DNA of 64,000 nucleotides from Escherichia phage KIT01. Positions 14,249 to 60,505 of this stretch are shown here, piece after piece. How positions within the stretch are numbered: the first letter of the stretch is position 1; every line of letters begins with the position of its first letter. The stretch lies in the sequence record AP019521.1; one strand, 5' to 3'. A program made the position numbers and the translations under genes. The notes under the pieces are model-generated. The model had not been told where the DNA came from, made no database searches, and worked only from the letters and a program-made list of their open reading frames with translations.

Positions 14249-14260
14249 TGTATTTATAAC
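14249..14260 (-). promoter_or_regulatory. late promoter TATAAATA for soc
   Basis: plus tatttata at 14251-14258 = minus TATAAATA about 30 nt upstream of soc ATG and AAGGAG SD. Confidence 0.55.
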
Positions 14261-16098: not shown

Positions 16099-16314
16099 TA
16101 TTTTTCCTTGGGCTCTAAATTAATAGAGCCATTATATCATTCGTTTTCGGATTTTTCTTTACGCTTTTTAGATGGGATTTGTTCAGGCCCTTTGTTGACG
16201 ACTGCGCCTGAGGTAGTTCCGGAGGCAATATCAGTAGGATTTCCACCTGCATCGCCTGCGACCATATCTTCGTTCATAACTTCTTTAAAAGATTTCATAG
16301 GCTCCTGGCCTTAT

Positions 16315-16506
16315 TTATATTACGAAAATAGCTTTATCACCATTTGCATCAGTGACTTCGTACGTATCTTCGTGATAAAGTGGAATAATCCAAGTCACAC
16401 CATCACTAGCAATAATATGGATAGCTTCTTGGTCTTTTGATACGATTTCATATTCTTCGAATAATTCGAATACAGAAATCTTAGAGCCCGTACACATTGC
16501 AGTCAT
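16315..16506 (-). CDS. hypothetical protein
   Basis: 63-aa ORF. Confidence 0.4.
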   Translation of the reverse strand: MTAMCTGSKISVFELFEEYEIVSKDQEAIHIIASDGVTWIIPLYHEDTYEVTDANGDKAIFVI

Positions 16507-31343: not shown

Positions 31344-31404
31344 ATTAATTTCCTCAGGTTTGTTTTTACATTATACTCCAAGGGAGGAATCTCCTCCCTA
31401 TGCT

Positions 31405-32103
31405 TTAGAACGAGTGGCTTGAGCCTGCTTCCATAGCCAATACATAAGAAGCTTGTGAACCTTCAAACTTGGCTGCGAAACGAGCGTCCTGACCTTCACC
31501 ACGAGCCCATAACAATACATGGTAATCGGCAGGCATCATTTTCATATTAGTTTTGTTGATAATGAATTTGAATTCAGGGCCATCATGGTCTGCAACCACT
31601 AAGGAATACAATGGACGTGCCAGGTCCTTATCATCAACTTGTTTGTAACCGTTGATTACAATTTTACCATTGTCTACAGTAATAGCAAATGTATCAATAC
31701 TCAGTCCAGAGGACACACGCATCAACTGTTGGTAATCTTCGGCTTTAAGGTCAAAAATAACTTCAGCCACTGGGAACGGAATAGCTTTGCTTGGGAATGC
31801 AATTGTGCTTGGGTCGGCAATAGGCCACTTAATAGTTGAACGTTGGTCTTTAATAATTAGAGTGGTTTGGTCTTCACTTACCGAAACTTCAGCACTTTCA
31901 GATACCAATGACAGAATACTTAAGAAGCCGTTCAGGTCGTAGATTGCGGCTTCGATATCAAAGGTGTCATTTACAGTAGCTTCACCATAACTTGCACCAG
32001 TTACTGAACGAGTTAGAATAGTGTTACCAGGTTTAAGCATGATACCTGGGTTAATACTGGAGAAGTTTTTCAGAATGTTCAGAGTTTCTTTAGAGAATTT
32101 CAT
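31405..32103 (-). CDS. 45: sliding clamp
   Basis: 232 aa; collinear with T4 gp45 (LKNF..IN.GIML..., KFEG..A.YV.A.EA.S.H.F). Confidence 0.9.
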   Translation of the reverse strand: MKFSKETLNILKNFSSINPGIMLKPGNTILTRSVTGASYGEATVNDTFDIEAAIYDLNGFLSILSLVSESAEVSVSEDQTTLIIKDQRSTIKWPIADPSTIAFPSKAIPFPVAEVIFDLKAEDYQQLMRVSSGLSIDTFAITVDNGKIVINGYKQVDDKDLARPLYSLVVADHDGPEFKFIINKTNMKMMPADYHVLLWARGEGQDARFAAKFEGSQASYVLAMEAGSSHSF

Positions 32104-32131
32104 AATGTTTCCTTATCAAGTCAAAAATTAA

Positions 32132-32545
32132 TTAAGCAATAACGATCATTTGTTTACGAATGGATTCAGGCAGAGATTCAATATACTCTGGAATCTGGGA
32201 AGCAACAATAGCACCAGCTTCAAGCAGTTGTTCGTCAAAATCTACGCAATAATCATCTTCGAGACGTTCAGAACCATCACGGTCGATAACCAGTTTAGCA
32301 CCTGCGGCCAGTGAATCATTATAGTGGCGACGCATAATTTCTACCCACTTATCGGATACGTCGTTATCAATGATACCGTAGAGCATGAACTTAGTTTCTT
32401 GTGGAAGAGACTGCAGACGACGTGCAGAGTTGGTATCAATATTCAGTACCCATGATTTACGGATACGGTTTTGATTATGTGGGTTGGAATCAGTACGAAT
32501 GGTTTTAACTTGGATATCTTTAACAGTAATAGCGTTAGCAAACAT
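32132..32545 (-). CDS. RNA polymerase-binding protein RpbA-like (by position)
   Basis: start set at MFANAITV; MotA-box middle promoter immediately upstream; position between 45 and 46. Confidence 0.45.
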   Translation of the reverse strand: MFANAITVKDIQVKTIRTDSNPHNQNRIRKSWVLNIDTNSARRLQSLPQETKFMLYGIIDNDVSDKWVEIMRRHYNDSLAAGAKLVIDRDGSERLEDDYCVDFDEQLLEAGAIVASQIPEYIESLPESIRKQMIVIA

Positions 32546-32572
32546 AATATTTTCTCTCATTTGGTTGGTAGA

Positions 32573-32601
32573 TGTATTATAAATCAATATTTTAAAGCAC
32601 T
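32573..32601 (-). promoter_or_regulatory. candidate MotA-dependent middle promoter for rpbA-like gene
   Basis: minus strand GTGCTTTAAA - 11 nt - TATAAT. Confidence 0.45.
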
Positions 32602-32607
32602 TAACGT

Positions 32608-32802
32608 TTAATCAAAGTATTCATAAACGAACCAGGCAGGGTTCCTGTTCGACATGATTCTATCATACTCTGACTTAAAAGCATTTCGGAGATAATCTTC
32701 AGTAACAAGATGTTCGTCTCCAGAGAAGTTATTAACTAAAACATACCGCTTTAGTTCAGGAACGGCCAACAAATGCTGGCCTGTTATAAAATTGGAAGCC
32801 AT
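32608..32802 (-). CDS. hypothetical protein
   Basis: 64-aa ORF. Confidence 0.4.
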   Translation of the reverse strand: MASNFITGQHLLAVPELKRYVLVNNFSGDEHLVTEDYLRNAFKSEYDRIMSNRNPAWFVYEYFD

Positions 32803-32845
32803 ATAAATATCTTTATCAGTCGCTGTATCAAATAAGGATTTGATA

Positions 32846-33562
32846 ATGAATTATAAATCAATATACGAAAAGCTTATTCAACGAGCAGTTAATAGAAATT
32901 TAACTACCTATAAAGAACGTCATCACATTATACCACAATGCATGGGTGGGACGGATGACGCTTTAAACTTGGTAGACTTAACACCTGAAGAACATTACTT
33001 GGCTCATCAGTTGTTAGTTAAAATCCATCCAGATAACGCATCGTTAGTCTACGCAGCAAGAATGATGACAGTTAGCTCACCAAAAGCTGATAGGTCTAAA
33101 AATAAATTATTTGGATGGCTTCGTCGTAAGAATTCAGAAGCCCAAAAGGATAAAGAATTCTCTGAAGAAACCAGAAAGAAAATGTCAATTTCTGCTTTAA
33201 AAAAGCCTAGAGTTACCTGTCCACACTGCGGCAAAACTGGATTGGTAGGCAATATGAACAGATGGCATTTCGATAACTGCCCTAAAGGCCCTAATAAAGT
33301 GGACCGCTCTATATCTGAAGAGCAAAAATTAAAAATAAAGAAAGGCCTAGAAAACATGGTCTATAAAATTGTGGAATGTGAATTCTGCGGCCTTTCAGGA
33401 AAATCCTGTGTTATTGCCTCTCATAAAGTTTTTTGTAAGAAAAATCCTAACGGGCGCAAAAAAACAGAAAAGAAGGTAGAATGCCCTCATTGTGGTAAAC
33501 AAGGGAATTCCGGTAATATGAATCGTTGGCATTTCGATAACTGTAAAATGAAGCCTCAATAA
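32846..33562 (+). CDS. free-standing HNH homing endonuclease with repeated zinc-finger modules
   Basis: ATG at 32846 after AAGGA; HNH core HHIIPQCMGGTDDALNLVDLTPEEHYLAHQ; three CxxC..C modules, two near-identical (CPHCGK.G..GNMNRWHFDNC). Confidence 0.8.
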   Translation: MNYKSIYEKLIQRAVNRNLTTYKERHHIIPQCMGGTDDALNLVDLTPEEHYLAHQLLVKIHPDNASLVYAARMMTVSSPKADRSKNKLFGWLRRKNSEAQKDKEFSEETRKKMSISALKKPRVTCPHCGKTGLVGNMNRWHFDNCPKGPNKVDRSISEEQKLKIKKGLENMVYKIVECEFCGLSGKSCVIASHKVFCKKNPNGRKKTEKKVECPHCGKQGNSGNMNRWHFDNCKMKPQ

Positions 33563-33567
33563 GAGGC

Positions 33568-35262
33568 TTATTCCATAATTGTAAATCGACCAACCTTTTT
33601 CATTTGTAAATGCTGACCGTACGCTTGAGGGTCATGGTCCCTGTGGCTGATTATAAAAACATTACTGTCTTCAAGACTATTAAGAATACTTGCAATCGCC
33701 TTAACAGCCTCAGCGTCAACTGCTCCGTCAAAAACTTCATCCAACACTAATGTACTGATGTGGACTCCACTGACTTTTTCAGCAATATCACGCCATGTAA
33801 AAAGTAGTGCGATATCAATACGTGCTTTCTCACCCTGTGAAAATGAAGCATAACTAAAGTCTTCACGTCCACGTGATTTAATCGTCTCATTGAATTCTTC
33901 GTCTAGGGTAAAGACGTAGTCGGCTTCCATAATCTTCAAATAAGAATTTATCTGCTTATTAAAGATAGGAATGTATTTCTTAATAATGGAACCTTTAATA
34001 CCGGTATCCTTCAACATTTCTGTTAGAATTCCACGATGATATTTTTCCATTACCAATGTGGATTTGGTAGAGACGATTTTATCAAGTTCTGCTTGAAGCG
34101 CTGCAATCTCTTCGGCGTTACTTACGAACTCAGCAGCGGCCTGGTCAATTAATACTTTAACCTTTTTAGCTTTCTCTACGGCAGTAATGGCTTGTTGCTT
34201 ATGAGTAGCTATCTGGGATTTAATAGCCAGAGCTTTATTACGTTGTTCGGTTACTTGGTCCTTAATGAGCTTGAGTTCTTGATACTGCTCATTAATCTTA
34301 TCCAAAGATTTTTGAAGCTCAAAGTTCTTATCCTTAATTTTAGTAAGGATATTTCCGTGCTCTTCCAATCCTTGCATACACGTAGGACAGCTGCCGCCAG
34401 TTTCGTATAATTTCACGACCTTAGTAAAGGTTGCCATATCATTCTTGATTGCAAACCCTTTATTGCTCAGGTCACTCATGGAGTTGCTAGGGTCATCATC
34501 GACGATAACATTGAGTAATTCATCAGTTAGTTTTTCTATATTGCCCTTCGCAGTCCTGGCTTCTTTAACGAGCTCGTCATACATTACTTGTAGACGTGCT
34601 GCGTTCTCGCCAGATAATTTACGTTGACGTTCTTCGTTGTCATTATAAATTTTAATCTGTTGGGTAATAGAATCCTGTTTAACGTCGATTACTTGGATTT
34701 GGCTATTAGTCTCACGAATCAAAGATTTGTTCAACTTATCCATATCCGCTAATACAGAAACCTCTAAGAGGTCTTCGACGAGTTTTCTTCTTGCAGGAGT
34801 GGATAGGCCCATAAAAGGGGTATATCCAGCTGTCCCGAGTACGACAATCTGTTTGAAGCTTGTGTAGGACATTCCGATAAGCTGTTCAAATTCTGCTTGG
34901 AAGTCCTTACTGCTGGCAGATTCATCAAGACGTTCACCGCCACAAGAGATTTCAAAAACGTTGGGTTTTTGCCCACGTTTGATGTAGTATTCTTTGCCAT
35001 CATATTCCATCCACAGTTCGACCAAAAGGTCTTTCTTATTACTTGAGTTAATCAACTGCCCTTTCTTAACATCACGAAAAGGCTTACCAAACAGAGCAAA
35101 TGTAACAGCTTCAAGGAACGTAGATTTCCCAGCGCCATTTTTACCGGTGACTAAGGTCTTTTGGACCTTATCAAGTTGGATTGTAATAGGTTGCTGGCCT
35201 ACCGACATAATATTTTTATACGTTACTTTCTTTAACTTAAAAGTCTTCATCGTTATAAGCAT
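33568..35262 (-). CDS. 46: recombination endonuclease subunit (Rad50/SbcC-like)
   Basis: 564 aa; Walker A GKNGAGKST, coiled-coil middle with CPTC zinc hook, Walker B/D-loop at C-terminus. Confidence 0.9.
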   Translation of the reverse strand: MLITMKTFKLKKVTYKNIMSVGQQPITIQLDKVQKTLVTGKNGAGKSTFLEAVTFALFGKPFRDVKKGQLINSSNKKDLLVELWMEYDGKEYYIKRGQKPNVFEISCGGERLDESASSKDFQAEFEQLIGMSYTSFKQIVVLGTAGYTPFMGLSTPARRKLVEDLLEVSVLADMDKLNKSLIRETNSQIQVIDVKQDSITQQIKIYNDNEERQRKLSGENAARLQVMYDELVKEARTAKGNIEKLTDELLNVIVDDDPSNSMSDLSNKGFAIKNDMATFTKVVKLYETGGSCPTCMQGLEEHGNILTKIKDKNFELQKSLDKINEQYQELKLIKDQVTEQRNKALAIKSQIATHKQQAITAVEKAKKVKVLIDQAAAEFVSNAEEIAALQAELDKIVSTKSTLVMEKYHRGILTEMLKDTGIKGSIIKKYIPIFNKQINSYLKIMEADYVFTLDEEFNETIKSRGREDFSYASFSQGEKARIDIALLFTWRDIAEKVSGVHISTLVLDEVFDGAVDAEAVKAIASILNSLEDSNVFIISHRDHDPQAYGQHLQMKKVGRFTIME

Positions 35263-35500
35263 CCTTGATGCATGATTCAGCCATATGAATTAATGTTTCT
35301 GGAGTATCATCTACCATTACATTAAAGCTAAATTCCACAGCCCAATCGGTAGCAACATAAACTTTAATAAGCTCGTTGGTATCGCGAGTGCTCACGGCTT
35401 CAAACCAGAACTTAATTGTATTAGGTTGTCCGTCGTCATCAATAACGATACAGTCGTGTTCTAGTTCAAGGCCTGATTTTTTGAATTCATCTAAAGTCAT
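35237..35500 (-). CDS. hypothetical protein
   Basis: 87-aa acidic ORF between 46 and 47. Confidence 0.4.
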   Translation of the reverse strand: MTLDEFKKSGLELEHDCIVIDDDGQPNTIKFWFEAVSTRDTNELIKVYVATDWAVEFSFNVMVDDTPETLIHMAESCIKDAYNDEDF

Positions 35501-53352: not shown

Positions 53353-53700
53353 CTATTTGCCTTTCGGCCTTAACCGATAGCGATTACCAAAAGCTAAAGC
53401 TCTACGGTTAGTATTATTATTTATAGCTTTTTTAAGCTTACGACAATAAGAATAGAACACGTCGTTAAAATTATGCTCAACCCAATTCCTCTGTATAGGC
53501 GAGGTAATGGAAAGCATATAATGCGCTTTAATTAAATCCATCCCATTTTTATTAGGACATTCTTTATTATTAGCATTATATGTCGCTGCTACAACCTCTA
53601 TCTCTCTTTTGTAAGCCACATCATCCATGATAGGCGAAAGAACAATATAAGAAATGGCCACAGCGAACGCTAGAATTAAAATCTTTGAATTTAGGTCCAT
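53353..53700 (-). CDS. hypothetical membrane-anchored protein
   Basis: 115 aa with N-terminal hydrophobic segment. Confidence 0.4.
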   Translation of the reverse strand: MDLNSKILILAFAVAISYIVLSPIMDDVAYKREIEVVAATYNANNKECPNKNGMDLIKAHYMLSITSPIQRNWVEHNFNDVFYSYCRKLKKAINNNTNRRALAFGNRYRLRPKGK

Positions 53701-60472: not shown

Positions 60473-60505
60473 AATACCTCCTGAGTATAGGAGGTATTTA
60501 TATCA
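60470..60505 (-). promoter_or_regulatory. late promoter TATAAATA plus SD-sequestering hairpin for lysozyme gene e
   Basis: minus strand reads TATAAATACCTCCTATACTCAGGAGGTATTATG: arms ACCTCC / GGAGGT pair across the SD. Confidence 0.6.

What the first reader, a model, noticed from the sequence alone, without database searches (positions are those of the whole stretch)
32846..33562. Plus-strand HNH homing endonuclease with duplicated zinc-finger modules
This is the only sizeable plus-strand gene in a 64-kb minus-strand block, between the rpbA-like gene and gene 46. It has an N-terminal HNH core and two near-identical 21-aa CxxC..C modules (CPHCGK.G..GNMNRWHFDNC at DNA 33218-33280 and 33483-33544) plus a third degenerate one. 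This is typical of a free-standing homing endonuclease insertion and a likely source of local marker exclusion.
Basis: partly seen in the sequence, partly recalled or inferred. Interest (0 to 1): 0.5.

Follow-up and report, generated by a model that had tools for sequence, protein, structure and literature searches.

The report
Mob-like HNH homing endonuclease cassette
This is an ordinary, already annotated selfish gene of T4-type phages: a DNA-cutting enzyme gene inserted between genes 45.2 and 46 that appears to copy itself, with a short piece of gene 46, into related phages that lack it.

Summary
Window 32846-33562 (+) is an intact 238-aa ORF and the only credible plus-strand gene in the window. 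It has a MobE-like HNH N-terminus and three CX2CX12HX3C zinc fingers. Fingers 1 and 3 are 18/21 identical.

The window is a Dhakavirus (JS98/Bp7 group). Near-identical copies are already annotated as "putative homing endonuclease" in MX01, Bp7 and IME281. Orthologs (46-68% aa) sit at the same 45.2/46 junction in Tequatrovirus (RB51 RB32ORF054w), Mosigvirus, Slopekvirus and a Klebsiella phage.

Most Dhakaviruses lack a 772-bp insert (32795-33566), and there genes 46 and 45.2 overlap. All 55 fixed differences between carriers and non-carriers lie at the insert edge or in the last ~220 bp of gene 46 (33569-33780). That block occurs only with the gene in 50,697 phage records, which is a co-conversion signature.

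The HNH residues are invariant and dN/dS is 0.02-0.3. A TATAAATA late-promoter motif lies upstream.

I infer a target in the conserved gene-46 tail. The Leu codon of H-L-Q-M starts with C in 35/38 gene-less tails but in only 1/10 carrier tails.

The parts
32846..33562 (+). Homing endonuclease ORF, 238 aa plus stop
   Evidence: ORF. PHROG 655 'homing endonuclease', E=1e-68. 99.6% aa identity to the MX01 'putative homing endonuclease'. dN/dS is 0.02-0.08 against the other Dhakavirus copies.
32903..33025 (+). HNH (beta-beta-alpha-metal) nuclease core, residues about 20-60. H26/H27 are at 32921-32926, N41 at 32966-32968, H50 at 32993-32995 and H54 at 33005-33007.
   Evidence: These residues are invariant in alignment A2. 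The profile aligns them to the HNH motif of McrA 6ghc, E=0.0046. The model has strands 24-27 and 42-45 and helix 47-60, with pLDDT above 90. 46% identity to T4 MobE over 120 aa.
33218..33280 (+). Zinc finger 1, CX2CX12HX3C (residues 125-145)
   Evidence: Motif found. Predicted beta-beta-alpha fold at residues 122-144. 18/21 identical to finger 3.
33377..33436 (+). Zinc finger 2, CX2CX11HX3C (residues 178-197), a distinct type
   Evidence: Motif found. It aligns with the first finger of the T4 I-TevIII remnant. Predicted beta-beta-alpha fold at residues 175-199.
33482..33544 (+). Zinc finger 3, CX2CX12HX3C (residues 213-233), the family-wide C-terminal finger
   Evidence: C213, C216, H229 and C233 are invariant in all 28 homologs. 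It aligns with the second finger of I-TevIII.
32802..32809 (+). TATAAATA, matching the T4-type late promoter consensus, 36 nt upstream of the ATG. It overlaps the start codon of 45.2 on the other strand.
   Evidence: It is the only plus-strand copy in the 64 kb. The motif is conserved 41-53 nt upstream of the ATG in 9 of 12 carrier loci from four lineages. The total count in the window is not above chance. Promoter function is inferred.
32834..32838 (+). Shine-Dalgarno AAGGA, 7 nt before the ATG
   Evidence: Read directly from the sequence. Conserved in the Bp7, FB, MX01, IME281 and F2 upstream regions.
33551..33569 (.). Hairpin AAGCCTC-AATAA-GAGGCTT. The endonuclease stop codon is in the loop and the gene-46 stop codon is in the 3' arm.
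   Evidence: Free energy is -10.6 kcal/mol (+ strand RNA) and -13.0 kcal/mol (- strand RNA), z about -3.1 to -3.2. Roth78 has two compensatory pair changes. There is no T-run, and the terminator scan did not call it. Its function is unknown.
32795..33566 (.). Segment absent from all seven endonuclease-less Dhakaviruses aligned. 32793-32794 also differ. This is the inserted cassette.
   Evidence: In insert-less relatives the 45.2 start overlaps the 46 stop as ATGA.
33569..33790 (-). Diverged 3' tail of gene 46 that travels with the endonuclease gene (a co-conversion tract)
   Evidence: 64 mismatches against LHE83 in 222 bp, followed by 212 bp with none. 54 of the 55 fixed carrier/non-carrier differences lie in 33569-33780. 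The changes are mostly synonymous. The block is at least 95% identical only in the carrier records and at most 76% in more than 1000 others.
33601..33612 (-). CAT TTA CAA ATG (H-L-Q-M of gp46). This is the window's presumably resistant version of the candidate target core, CAT CTT CAA ATG. The Leu codon is 33607-33609.
   Evidence: The first base of the Leu codon is C in 35/38 distinct endonuclease-less tails but in only 1/10 distinct carrier tails. The near-isogenic Mosigvirus pair F2/ZQ3 differs there as well. This is inference only.
32608..32802 (-). Gene 45.2, whose first codons are supplied by the cassette (MASNF instead of MSDF)
   Evidence: The same extra Ala codon after the start is present in the Mosigvirus and Tequatrovirus carriers.
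33568..35262 (-). Gene 46 (Rad50/SbcC-like recombination nuclease subunit), tail-to-tail with the endonuclease gene. Relatives annotate 1683 nt, which would put the start at 35250.

Best explanation
The ORF is a free-standing, Mob-like HNH homing endonuclease gene carried on a roughly 775-bp cassette that replaced the 46/45.2 junction of a Dhakavirus.

Shown:
- The gene is intact and under purifying selection.
- It has a MobE-type HNH domain followed by three I-TevIII-type CCHC zinc fingers.
- It is present in a minority of genomes in at least four genera, always at the same junction and on the opposite strand to gene 46.
- In Dhakavirus it is perfectly linked to a foreign-looking version of the last ~220 bp of gene 46.

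Inferred mechanism:
1. The gene is transcribed late, in the late (opposite) direction, from its own TATAAATA promoter.
2. In a mixed infection with a relative that lacks it, the zinc-finger array binds the conserved coding sequence at the 3' end of gene 46 (...CAT CTT CAA ATG AAG AAA GTT GG...).
3. The HNH domain nicks or, as a dimer like I-TevIII, cuts nearby.
4. Recombinational repair from the carrier genome copies the cassette and co-converts the adjoining gene-46 tail.
5. The carrier protects itself through synonymous changes in that site (Leu CTT to TTA at 33607-33609).

The expected consequence is preferential inheritance of local markers around genes 45.2 and 46 in crosses.
For: Identity:
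- PHROG 655, E=1e-68.
- 46% identity to T4 MobE over 120 aa, E=5e-31.
- Fingers 2-3 are 33% identical over 82 aa to the T4 I-TevIII two-finger remnant, E=7e-10.
- The CX2CX12-13HX3C fingers of I-TevIII bind zinc and are needed for DNA binding and dimerisation (PMC1865063).
- H26, H27, N41, H50 and H54 are invariant and align to HNH motifs of solved nucleases.
- The structure model is confident, pLDDT 89.8, with a beta-beta-alpha core plus three beta-beta-alpha fingers.

Mobility:
- Insert 32795-33566 is absent from 7 aligned Dhakaviruses.
- All 55 fixed carrier/non-carrier differences in 4.5 kb lie at 32793 or in 33569-33780.
- That gene-46 tail is found only in carrier records (7 of 50,697) and is at most 76% identical elsewhere.
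- Orthologs occupy the same junction and orientation in Tequatrovirus, Mosigvirus, Slopekvirus and Klebsiella phage Roth78. At least 80% of the query, which requires the insert, was covered in 60 of 532 matching records for the Tequatrovirus query and 14 of 219 for the Mosigvirus query.
- The cassette's left edge, an extra Ala codon after the 45.2 start, is shared across genera.

Activity proxies:
- dN/dS is 0.02-0.08 within Dhakavirus and 0.17-0.31 between genera.
- The TATAAATA motif is conserved upstream.

Target:
- The near-isogenic pair F2/ST0 against ZQ3 differs at only 5 positions in the first ~75 bp of the gene-46 tail, including Leu CTT to TTG.
- Leu-codon position 1 is C in 35/38 gene-less tails against 1/10 carrier tails.
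- MobE gives the precedent: a nick about 120 nt inside the neighbouring gene at a polymorphic site (PMC2790892).
Against: - No enzymatic or genetic test was possible. Cleavage, nicking versus double-strand cutting, and super-Mendelian inheritance are all unshown.
- The Pfam HNH models score below their cut-offs (HNH 12.8 against 21.4 bits; HNH_5 17.2 against 27.5).
- The Leu-codon association is not corrected for phylogeny. One carrier lineage (FB) keeps CTT. Several gene-less phages of other genera have non-CTT codons.
- The count of TATAAATA in the window is at chance level: 5 found against 6.1 expected.
- The donor of the diverged gene-46 tail was not found.
Confidence: 0.8

Rival explanations
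1. It is the same kind of element, but the recognition or cleavage site is the 46/45.2 junction itself. Insertion would then destroy the site, as it does for intron-encoded enzymes. On this reading the diverged gene-46 tail is only passively co-converted donor sequence and has no role in immunity.
For: The cassette replaces the junction precisely, and the same left edge is shared across genera. A ~29% diverged, 222-bp tract is far more change than immunity would need. FB keeps the CTT codon although it carries the gene.
Against: The empty junctions are not conserved between genera. Dhakavirus has an ATGA overlap, while T4 and Mosigvirus have a spacer of about 55 bp. Yet orthologous endonucleases occupy the site in all of them. 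The adjoining gp46 coding sequence is highly conserved. In the Mosigvirus pair the only flank differences are 5 substitutions within ~75 bp inside gene 46.
Confidence: 0.3
2. It is a currently inactive passenger: a formerly mobile endonuclease gene that persists only by linkage and will decay.
For: Homing endonuclease genes commonly degenerate after fixation; T4 I-TevIII is a truncated remnant (PMC1865063). The gene is at low frequency in each genus. Activity was not tested.
Against: The ORF is full-length in all eight carriers examined, with no stops. dN/dS is 0.02-0.08, with 9-10 synonymous against 1-3 non-synonymous differences. The catalytic and zinc ligands are invariant. The upstream promoter-like motif and Shine-Dalgarno are conserved.
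Confidence: 0.1
3. It is a domesticated nuclease or DNA-binding protein with a role other than homing. Examples would be excluding competing phages or satellites, or regulating the convergent gene 46 transcript.
For: The gene is antisense to the early/middle 46-45.2 transcription unit and ends in a conserved hairpin shared with the stop of gene 46. I-TevI shows that such enzymes can double as repressors (PMC2988022).
Against: The patchy presence and absence, the linkage to a co-conversion tract and the alternative occupancy of the same site by a Seg-like endonuclease gene are the hallmarks of a selfish element, not of a fixed host function.
Confidence: 0.05

Closest known systems
T4 MobE (free-standing HNH homing endonuclease between nrdA and nrdB)
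   Same: The N-terminal HNH domain is homologous: 46% identity over 120 aa, starting with the same MNY..IY...HHIIP.CMGG..D..NLV.LT..EH motif. Both are free-standing between conserved genes and are inherited with flanking sequence. In MobE the target lies inside the neighbouring gene at a polymorphic site (PMC2790892).
   Different: The locus differs (45.2/46 rather than nrdA/nrdB). This gene is on the opposite strand to its neighbours and has its own late-promoter-like motif, whereas mobE is promoterless and co-transcribed. The C-terminal region here is three zinc fingers; the annotated T4 MobE of 141 aa has none.
I-TevIII of phage RB3 (intron-encoded HNH endonuclease with two zinc fingers)
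   Same: It has the same overall plan: an N-terminal H-N-H domain plus C-terminal CX2CX12-13HX3C zinc fingers. Fingers 2-3 here align to the I-TevIII two-finger domain as kept in the T4 remnant (33% over 82 aa). In I-TevIII the fingers bind zinc and mediate DNA binding and dimerisation, and the enzyme makes a double-strand break with 2-nt 3' overhangs (PMC1865063).
   Different: This gene is free-standing, not intron-encoded. It has three fingers rather than two, because of an extra copy of the C-terminal finger. Its presumed target is gene 46, not nrdB.
RB51/RB32 ORF054w and other annotated 'homing endonucleases' at the 45.2/46 junction (fFiEco06, F2/ST0, KpCCP1, Roth78; MX01, Bp7, IME281)
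   Same: These are orthologs at the same junction, in the same orientation and of the same length (238 aa). Identity is 99.6% (MX01), 64-68% (Tequatrovirus and Mosigvirus) and 46% (Slopekvirus).
   Different: Nothing essential. The window's copy is a member of the Bp7/MX01 allele group. The FB allele differs in its C-terminal half (pS 0.79 for codons 131-238 against 0.14 for codons 1-130).
Seg-like (GIY-YIG) endonuclease gene of Dhakavirus UGJNEcP3/UGJNEcP4/UP19
   Same: It occupies the same 45.2/46 junction. It ends in the same CCHC finger (VKCPYCDKIGSNNIMKRWHFDNCK), which is 78% nt identical over 78 nt to finger 3 of the FB allele.
   Different: It has a different nuclease domain: PHROG 314, with only weak GIY-YIG matches (E 0.012-0.042), plus a NUMOD3 motif. 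It is on the same strand as gene 46. It is present in only 3 records.
I-HmuI (Bacillus phage SPO1 intron HNH nicking endonuclease)
   Same: It is a modular HNH homing enzyme with an extended DNA-binding region that nicks one strand. It is cited as the structural model for MobE-type enzymes (PMC2790892).
   Different: No detectable sequence match was found in the PDB search. I-HmuI uses NUMOD and helix-turn-helix modules rather than zinc fingers (from my own knowledge, not tested here).

Membership tests
HNH (beta-beta-alpha-metal) nuclease superfamily | Conserved His ... Asn ... His catalytic and metal-binding residues | tested here: met
   H26, H27, N41, H50 and H54 are invariant in 28 homologs. 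They align with the HH..N..H of McrA 6ghc (E=0.0046), a group II intron maturase and Cas8-HNH.
HNH (beta-beta-alpha-metal) nuclease superfamily | Beta-beta-alpha fold around the motif | tested here: met
HNH (beta-beta-alpha-metal) nuclease superfamily | Match to curated HNH sequence models | tested here: inconclusive
   Pfam HNH scores 12.8 bits against a cut-off of 21.4, and HNH_5 scores 17.2 against 27.5. However, PHROG 655 'homing endonuclease' gives E=1e-68 and T4 MobE is 46% identical.
Mob-like free-standing HNH homing endonucleases of T4-type phages | N-terminal domain homologous to MobA-E | tested here: met
   BLASTP against T4 MobE: 46% over 120 aa, E=5e-31. The RB51 ortholog is annotated 'similar to mobB'.
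Mob-like free-standing HNH homing endonucleases of T4-type phages | Free-standing ORF between genes conserved among relatives | tested here: met
   It lies between 45.2 and 46, which are contiguous in relatives that lack it.
Mob-like free-standing HNH homing endonucleases of T4-type phages | Sporadic presence and absence among close relatives, with linked conversion of flanking sequence | tested here: met
   Window 32795-33566 is absent from 7 Dhakaviruses. The fixed differences are confined to the cassette edge and 33569-33780. That block is exclusive to carriers.
Mob-like free-standing HNH homing endonucleases of T4-type phages | Site-specific nicking or cleavage of the endonuclease-less allele | not testable with these tools
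   Only a sequence-based candidate site is available, CAT CTT CAA ATG in gene 46.
Mob-like free-standing HNH homing endonucleases of T4-type phages | Preferential (super-Mendelian) inheritance in mixed infection, dependent on the nuclease | not testable with these tools
   This needs phage crosses.
I-TevIII-type zinc-finger DNA-binding domain | CX2CX12-13HX3C spacing | tested here: met
   Fingers at residues 125-145 and 213-233 have CX2CX12HX3C. The finger at 178-197 has CX2CX11HX3C. The motif was defined in PMC1865063.
I-TevIII-type zinc-finger DNA-binding domain | Sequence homology to the I-TevIII two-finger domain | tested here: met
   33% identity over 82 aa to the T4 I-TevIII remnant, E=7e-10. 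PHROG 27406 (E=2.9e-9) and PHROG 12324 (E=4.4e-7) match residues 169-236.
I-TevIII-type zinc-finger DNA-binding domain | Zinc binding, DNA binding and dimerisation | not testable with these tools
   These were shown for I-TevIII only (PMC1865063).
I-TevIII (as the same enzyme) | Encoded inside the nrdB group I intron | tested here: not met
   The gene is free-standing at the 45.2/46 junction. It is therefore a relative in architecture, not I-TevIII itself.
NUMOD3-containing nucleases | Pfam PF07460 motif | tested here: not met
   There is no NUMOD3 hit in this protein at E up to 1, although many more distant relatives carry it in place of the internal fingers.

The most novel reading that the evidence does not exclude
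The three-finger array may be a natural, modular 'zinc-finger nuclease' system. On this reading the CCHC beta-beta-alpha fingers read the conserved gene-46 tail in a base-specific way, and the same finger module is swapped between HNH (Mob-like) and GIY-YIG (Seg-like) nuclease domains that compete for one genomic site. Variation in finger number and sequence (Bp7 allele against FB allele) would track changes in the linked target sequence.
Probability: 0.2. Interest if true: 0.45.

Novelty: already known. Interest (0 to 1): 0.2.

Why it matters
This matters little beyond annotation. It confirms that a Dhakavirus carries a Mob-like homing endonuclease cassette. That group was listed in 2010 as having no homing endonuclease genes in JS98 and JS10 (PMC2993671).

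It also yields a concrete, testable target prediction: the conserved H-L-Q-M codons near the end of the Rad50-like gene 46.

The same gene lineage at one junction in at least four genera, plus a Seg-like gene with a homologous finger at the same junction, makes this a convenient natural system. It could be used to study how free-standing endonuclease genes spread between phage genera and create local mosaicism around essential recombination and replication genes.

Tried and rejected
- phmmer of the single protein against PDB sequences gave only spurious flavivirus envelope and eukaryotic zinc-finger hits with E above 0.3. The family profile was needed to reach HNH structures.
- The IMG/VR scan with the protein returned only four same-locus orthologs: the copy of IME281 and three Slopekvirus loci. 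Two of the Slopekvirus loci were reused as extra carrier tails in the tally, but it was too few for a carrier logo.
- TATAAATA is not enriched in the window, so the promoter call rests on position, strand and conservation only.
- The hairpin at the stop codon is not a canonical intrinsic terminator: it has no T-run and was not called.
- A search for the donor of the diverged gene-46 tail found nothing closer than 76%.
- I checked whether Bp7's ~200 extra bases were an insertion in gene 46. They are gene 46.1, which the window lacks.
- No paralog of the endonuclease exists elsewhere in the window.
Full report
**Context.** The window is a T4-type phage of the genus Dhakavirus. Region 31400-35300 is 96.8% identical to phages Bp7 and MX01 and 90-95% identical to JS98, IME08, QL01 and others. 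The gene order on the minus strand is 44, 45, rpbA, 45.2, then the plus-strand ORF, then 46, 46.2 and 47.

**Observation.** The ORF runs from 32846 to 33562 on the plus strand and encodes 238 aa.
- The ORF listing starts it at a TTG at 32840. The MNY N-terminus is conserved in all homologs and an AAGGA lies 7 nt upstream, so the ATG at 32846 is the start. Public annotations use the same start.
- No other plus-strand ORF of at least 90 aa is free of a longer minus-strand ORF, apart from 16108-16440. None of eight such plus-strand ORFs hits a PHROG family.
- The two modules at 33218-33280 and 33482-33544 are 18/21 aa identical, against a maximum of 8/21 in 200 shuffles. They are only 43/63 nt identical, with ten synonymous codon differences, so this is an old duplication kept by selection.
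- A third CX2C...HX3C unit lies at residues 178-197.

**What the protein is.**
- PHROG 655 'homing endonuclease' matches at E=1e-68. Pfam HNH models are sub-threshold.
- The first 120 residues are 46% identical to T4 MobE.
- Across 28 homologs H26, H27, N41, H50 and H54 are invariant. A profile of that alignment aligns them to the HH..N..H motif of McrA, a group II intron maturase and Cas8-HNH.
- The AlphaFold model is confident (pLDDT 89.8). It shows a beta-beta-alpha core at residues 24-60, then three repeats of a helix followed by a beta-beta-alpha unit at 122-144, 175-199 and 210-232.
- Fingers 2 and 3 align to the two-finger C-terminal domain retained in the T4 I-TevIII remnant (33% over 82 aa, E=7e-10).
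- For RB3 I-TevIII, fingers with exactly this CX2CX12-13HX3C spacing bind zinc and are required for DNA binding and dimerisation, and the enzyme makes a double-strand break (PMC1865063).
- The C-terminal finger is invariant across the family. The internal region varies, and many relatives carry NUMOD3 motifs there instead.
- The architecture is therefore a MobE-type nuclease, plus an I-TevIII-type two-finger domain, plus an extra copy of the terminal finger.

**Evidence that it is, or recently was, mobile.**
- Seven aligned Dhakaviruses (LHE83, PSD9, QL01, IME08, AnYang, JS98, VR5) lack exactly window 32795-33566. In them the 45.2 start overlaps the 46 stop as ATGA.
- Besides the window, four aligned genomes carry the same allele (Bp7, MX01, IME281, 04086), and FB carries a mosaic allele.
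- In a 4.5-kb alignment, flanks are 93-100% identical between carriers and non-carriers. The exception is the last ~220 bp of gene 46. There the window differs from LHE83 at 64 positions between 33569 and 33790, followed by 212 bp without a single difference.
- All 55 positions where the two groups share no base lie at 32793 or in 33569-33780.
- The changes are mostly synonymous, and the gp46 C-terminus is nearly unchanged.
- This 253-bp block is at least 95% identical only in the seven carrier records out of 50,697 phage records. It is at most 76% identical in more than 1000 others. It is about equally distant, roughly 70%, from all aligned gene-46 tails I sampled. The block therefore came in with the gene from an unsampled donor, which is the classic co-conversion footprint.

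**Distribution beyond Dhakavirus.**
- Orthologs of 46-68% identity occupy the same junction, on the opposite strand to gene 46. They lie tail-to-tail with its stop or overlap it. They occur in Tequatrovirus (fFiEco06; RB51 'RB32ORF054w, similar to mobB'), Mosigvirus (F2, ST0), Slopekvirus (KpCCP1) and Klebsiella phage Roth78.
- At least 80% of the query, which requires the insert, was covered in 60 of 532 matching records for the Tequatrovirus query and in 14 of 219 for the Mosigvirus query.
- The left edge of the cassette is the same in three genera: it provides a new 45.2 start plus an extra Ala codon. This argues for one ancestral insertion spread by homologous repair.
- A 2010 survey listed JS98 and JS10 as free of homing endonuclease genes and counted mob-like genes in RB32 and RB51 (PMC2993671).

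**Selection and expression signals.**
- All eight carrier ORFs examined are intact.
- Within Dhakavirus there are 9-10 synonymous against 1-3 non-synonymous differences (dN/dS 0.02-0.08). Between genera dN/dS is 0.17-0.31, although those alignments are ungapped and dS is saturated.
- TATAAATA, the T4 late-promoter consensus (established knowledge), lies at 32802-32809. It is the only plus-strand copy in the window. The motif is conserved 41-53 nt upstream of the ATG in 9 of 12 carrier loci. Its total count in the window is no more than chance.
- The plus-strand orientation matches the usual direction of late transcription in T4-type genomes (established knowledge).
- MobE, by contrast, is promoterless (PMC2790892).

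**The hairpin.** A hairpin at 33551-33569 holds the endonuclease stop codon in its loop and the gene-46 stop codon in its 3' arm. Its free energy is -10.6 kcal/mol on one strand and -13.0 on the other, with z about -3. Roth78 shows two compensatory changes. It lacks a T-run and is not a canonical terminator. Its role is unknown.

**Likely target (inference).**
- The empty junctions differ between genera: an overlap in Dhakavirus and a spacer of about 55 bp in T4 and Mosigvirus. The adjoining coding sequence for ...YGQHLQMKKVGRFTVM... is highly conserved.
- In the near-isogenic Mosigvirus pair F2/ST0 (carriers) against ZQ3 (non-carrier), the gene-46 flank differs at only five positions within ~75 bp and is then identical. 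The differences include Leu CTT to TTG in H-L-Q-M.
- The window has TTA at 33607-33609. fFiEco06 and RB51 have ATT, Roth78 has TTA, and KpCCP1 has ATT. Only FB keeps CTT, and there the preceding His codon is CAC.
- Over all loci in hand, the first base of that codon is C in 35 of 38 distinct gene-less tails and in 1 of 10 distinct carrier tails. This is the strongest discriminator in the last 100 nt.
- The association is suggestive and not corrected for phylogeny. Some gene-less phages of other genera also have non-CTT codons.
- It parallels MobE, which nicks about 120 nt inside nrdB at a polymorphic stretch (PMC2790892).
- Whether this enzyme nicks like MobE or cuts both strands as a dimer like I-TevIII cannot be decided here.

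**Related observations at the same site.**
- UGJNEcP3, UGJNEcP4 and UP19 carry a different endonuclease gene at this junction, on the gene-46 strand. It belongs to PHROG 314, has weak GIY-YIG matches, and its relatives are annotated as Seg-like.
- That gene ends in the same CCHC finger, which is 78% nt identical over 78 nt to FB's finger 3.
- FB's allele is nearly identical to the window's in codons 1-130 (pS 0.14) but highly diverged in codons 131-238 (pS 0.79). The divergence continues into its own gene-46 tail, which is 84% identical to that of UGJNEcP3.

**Verdict.** The element is a typical, already annotated Mob-like free-standing homing endonuclease with an I-TevIII-type finger domain. 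The additions here are the cassette boundaries, the exclusive linkage to a converted gene-46 tail, and a specific target prediction. Novelty is low, and enzymatic activity remains untested.

Noticed in passing
L004:1890-2573 (Escherichia phage UGJNEcP3), equivalent to the window junction at about 32795/33567: A different, Seg-like (weak GIY-YIG, PHROG 314) endonuclease gene occupies the same 45.2/46 junction on the gene-46 strand in UGJNEcP3, UGJNEcP4 and UP19. Its C-terminal CCHC finger is homologous at the DNA level (78% over 78 nt) to finger 3 of the FB HNH allele. This suggests the finger module is shared between two nuclease families at one site.
   Followed up: partly
L005:1945-2661 (phage vB_EcoM_FB) against window 32846-33562: The FB allele is mosaic. 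Codons 1-130 are nearly identical to the window (pS 0.14). Codons 131-238 are strongly diverged (pS 0.79), and so is the adjoining gene-46 tail. The DNA-binding half and the presumed target region seem to have been exchanged together.
   Followed up: partly
window 31344-31404 (intergenic between genes 44 and 45); L140:1174-1740 in MX01: MX01 and Bp7 carry an extra 188-192 aa gene between genes 44 and 45 that the window lacks. It hits PHROG 314 'homing endonuclease' at E=8.5e-16. This is a second polymorphic endonuclease site about 1.5 kb from the first.
   Followed up: partly
window about 35243: A 209-bp segment carrying gene 46.1 is present in Bp7, FB, IME08, QL01 and JS98 between genes 46 and 46.2. 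It is absent from the window, LHE83, MX01 and others. This is another presence/absence polymorphism flanking gene 46.
   Followed up: no
window 32800-32830 (minus strand, upstream of the 45.2 start): In the window the cassette removes the translational coupling of 45.2 to gene 46 and leaves no clear Shine-Dalgarno before the new 45.2 ATG. The Mosigvirus, Tequatrovirus and Roth78 cassettes provide GGAG or GGAGG there. Expression of 45.2 may be reduced in this lineage.
   Followed up: no
L001:2839-4339 (phage Bp7): Gene 46 of Bp7 is annotated as two CDS (183 nt and 1239 nt), although the DNA aligns with the window's intact gene. This is probably a frameshift or a sequencing error in that record.
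   Followed up: no
window 14251-14258, 16312-16319, 53418-53425 and 60495-60502 (minus strand): These are four further exact TATAAATA motifs, all on the minus strand. They are candidate late promoters inside the early/middle gene block.
   Followed up: no
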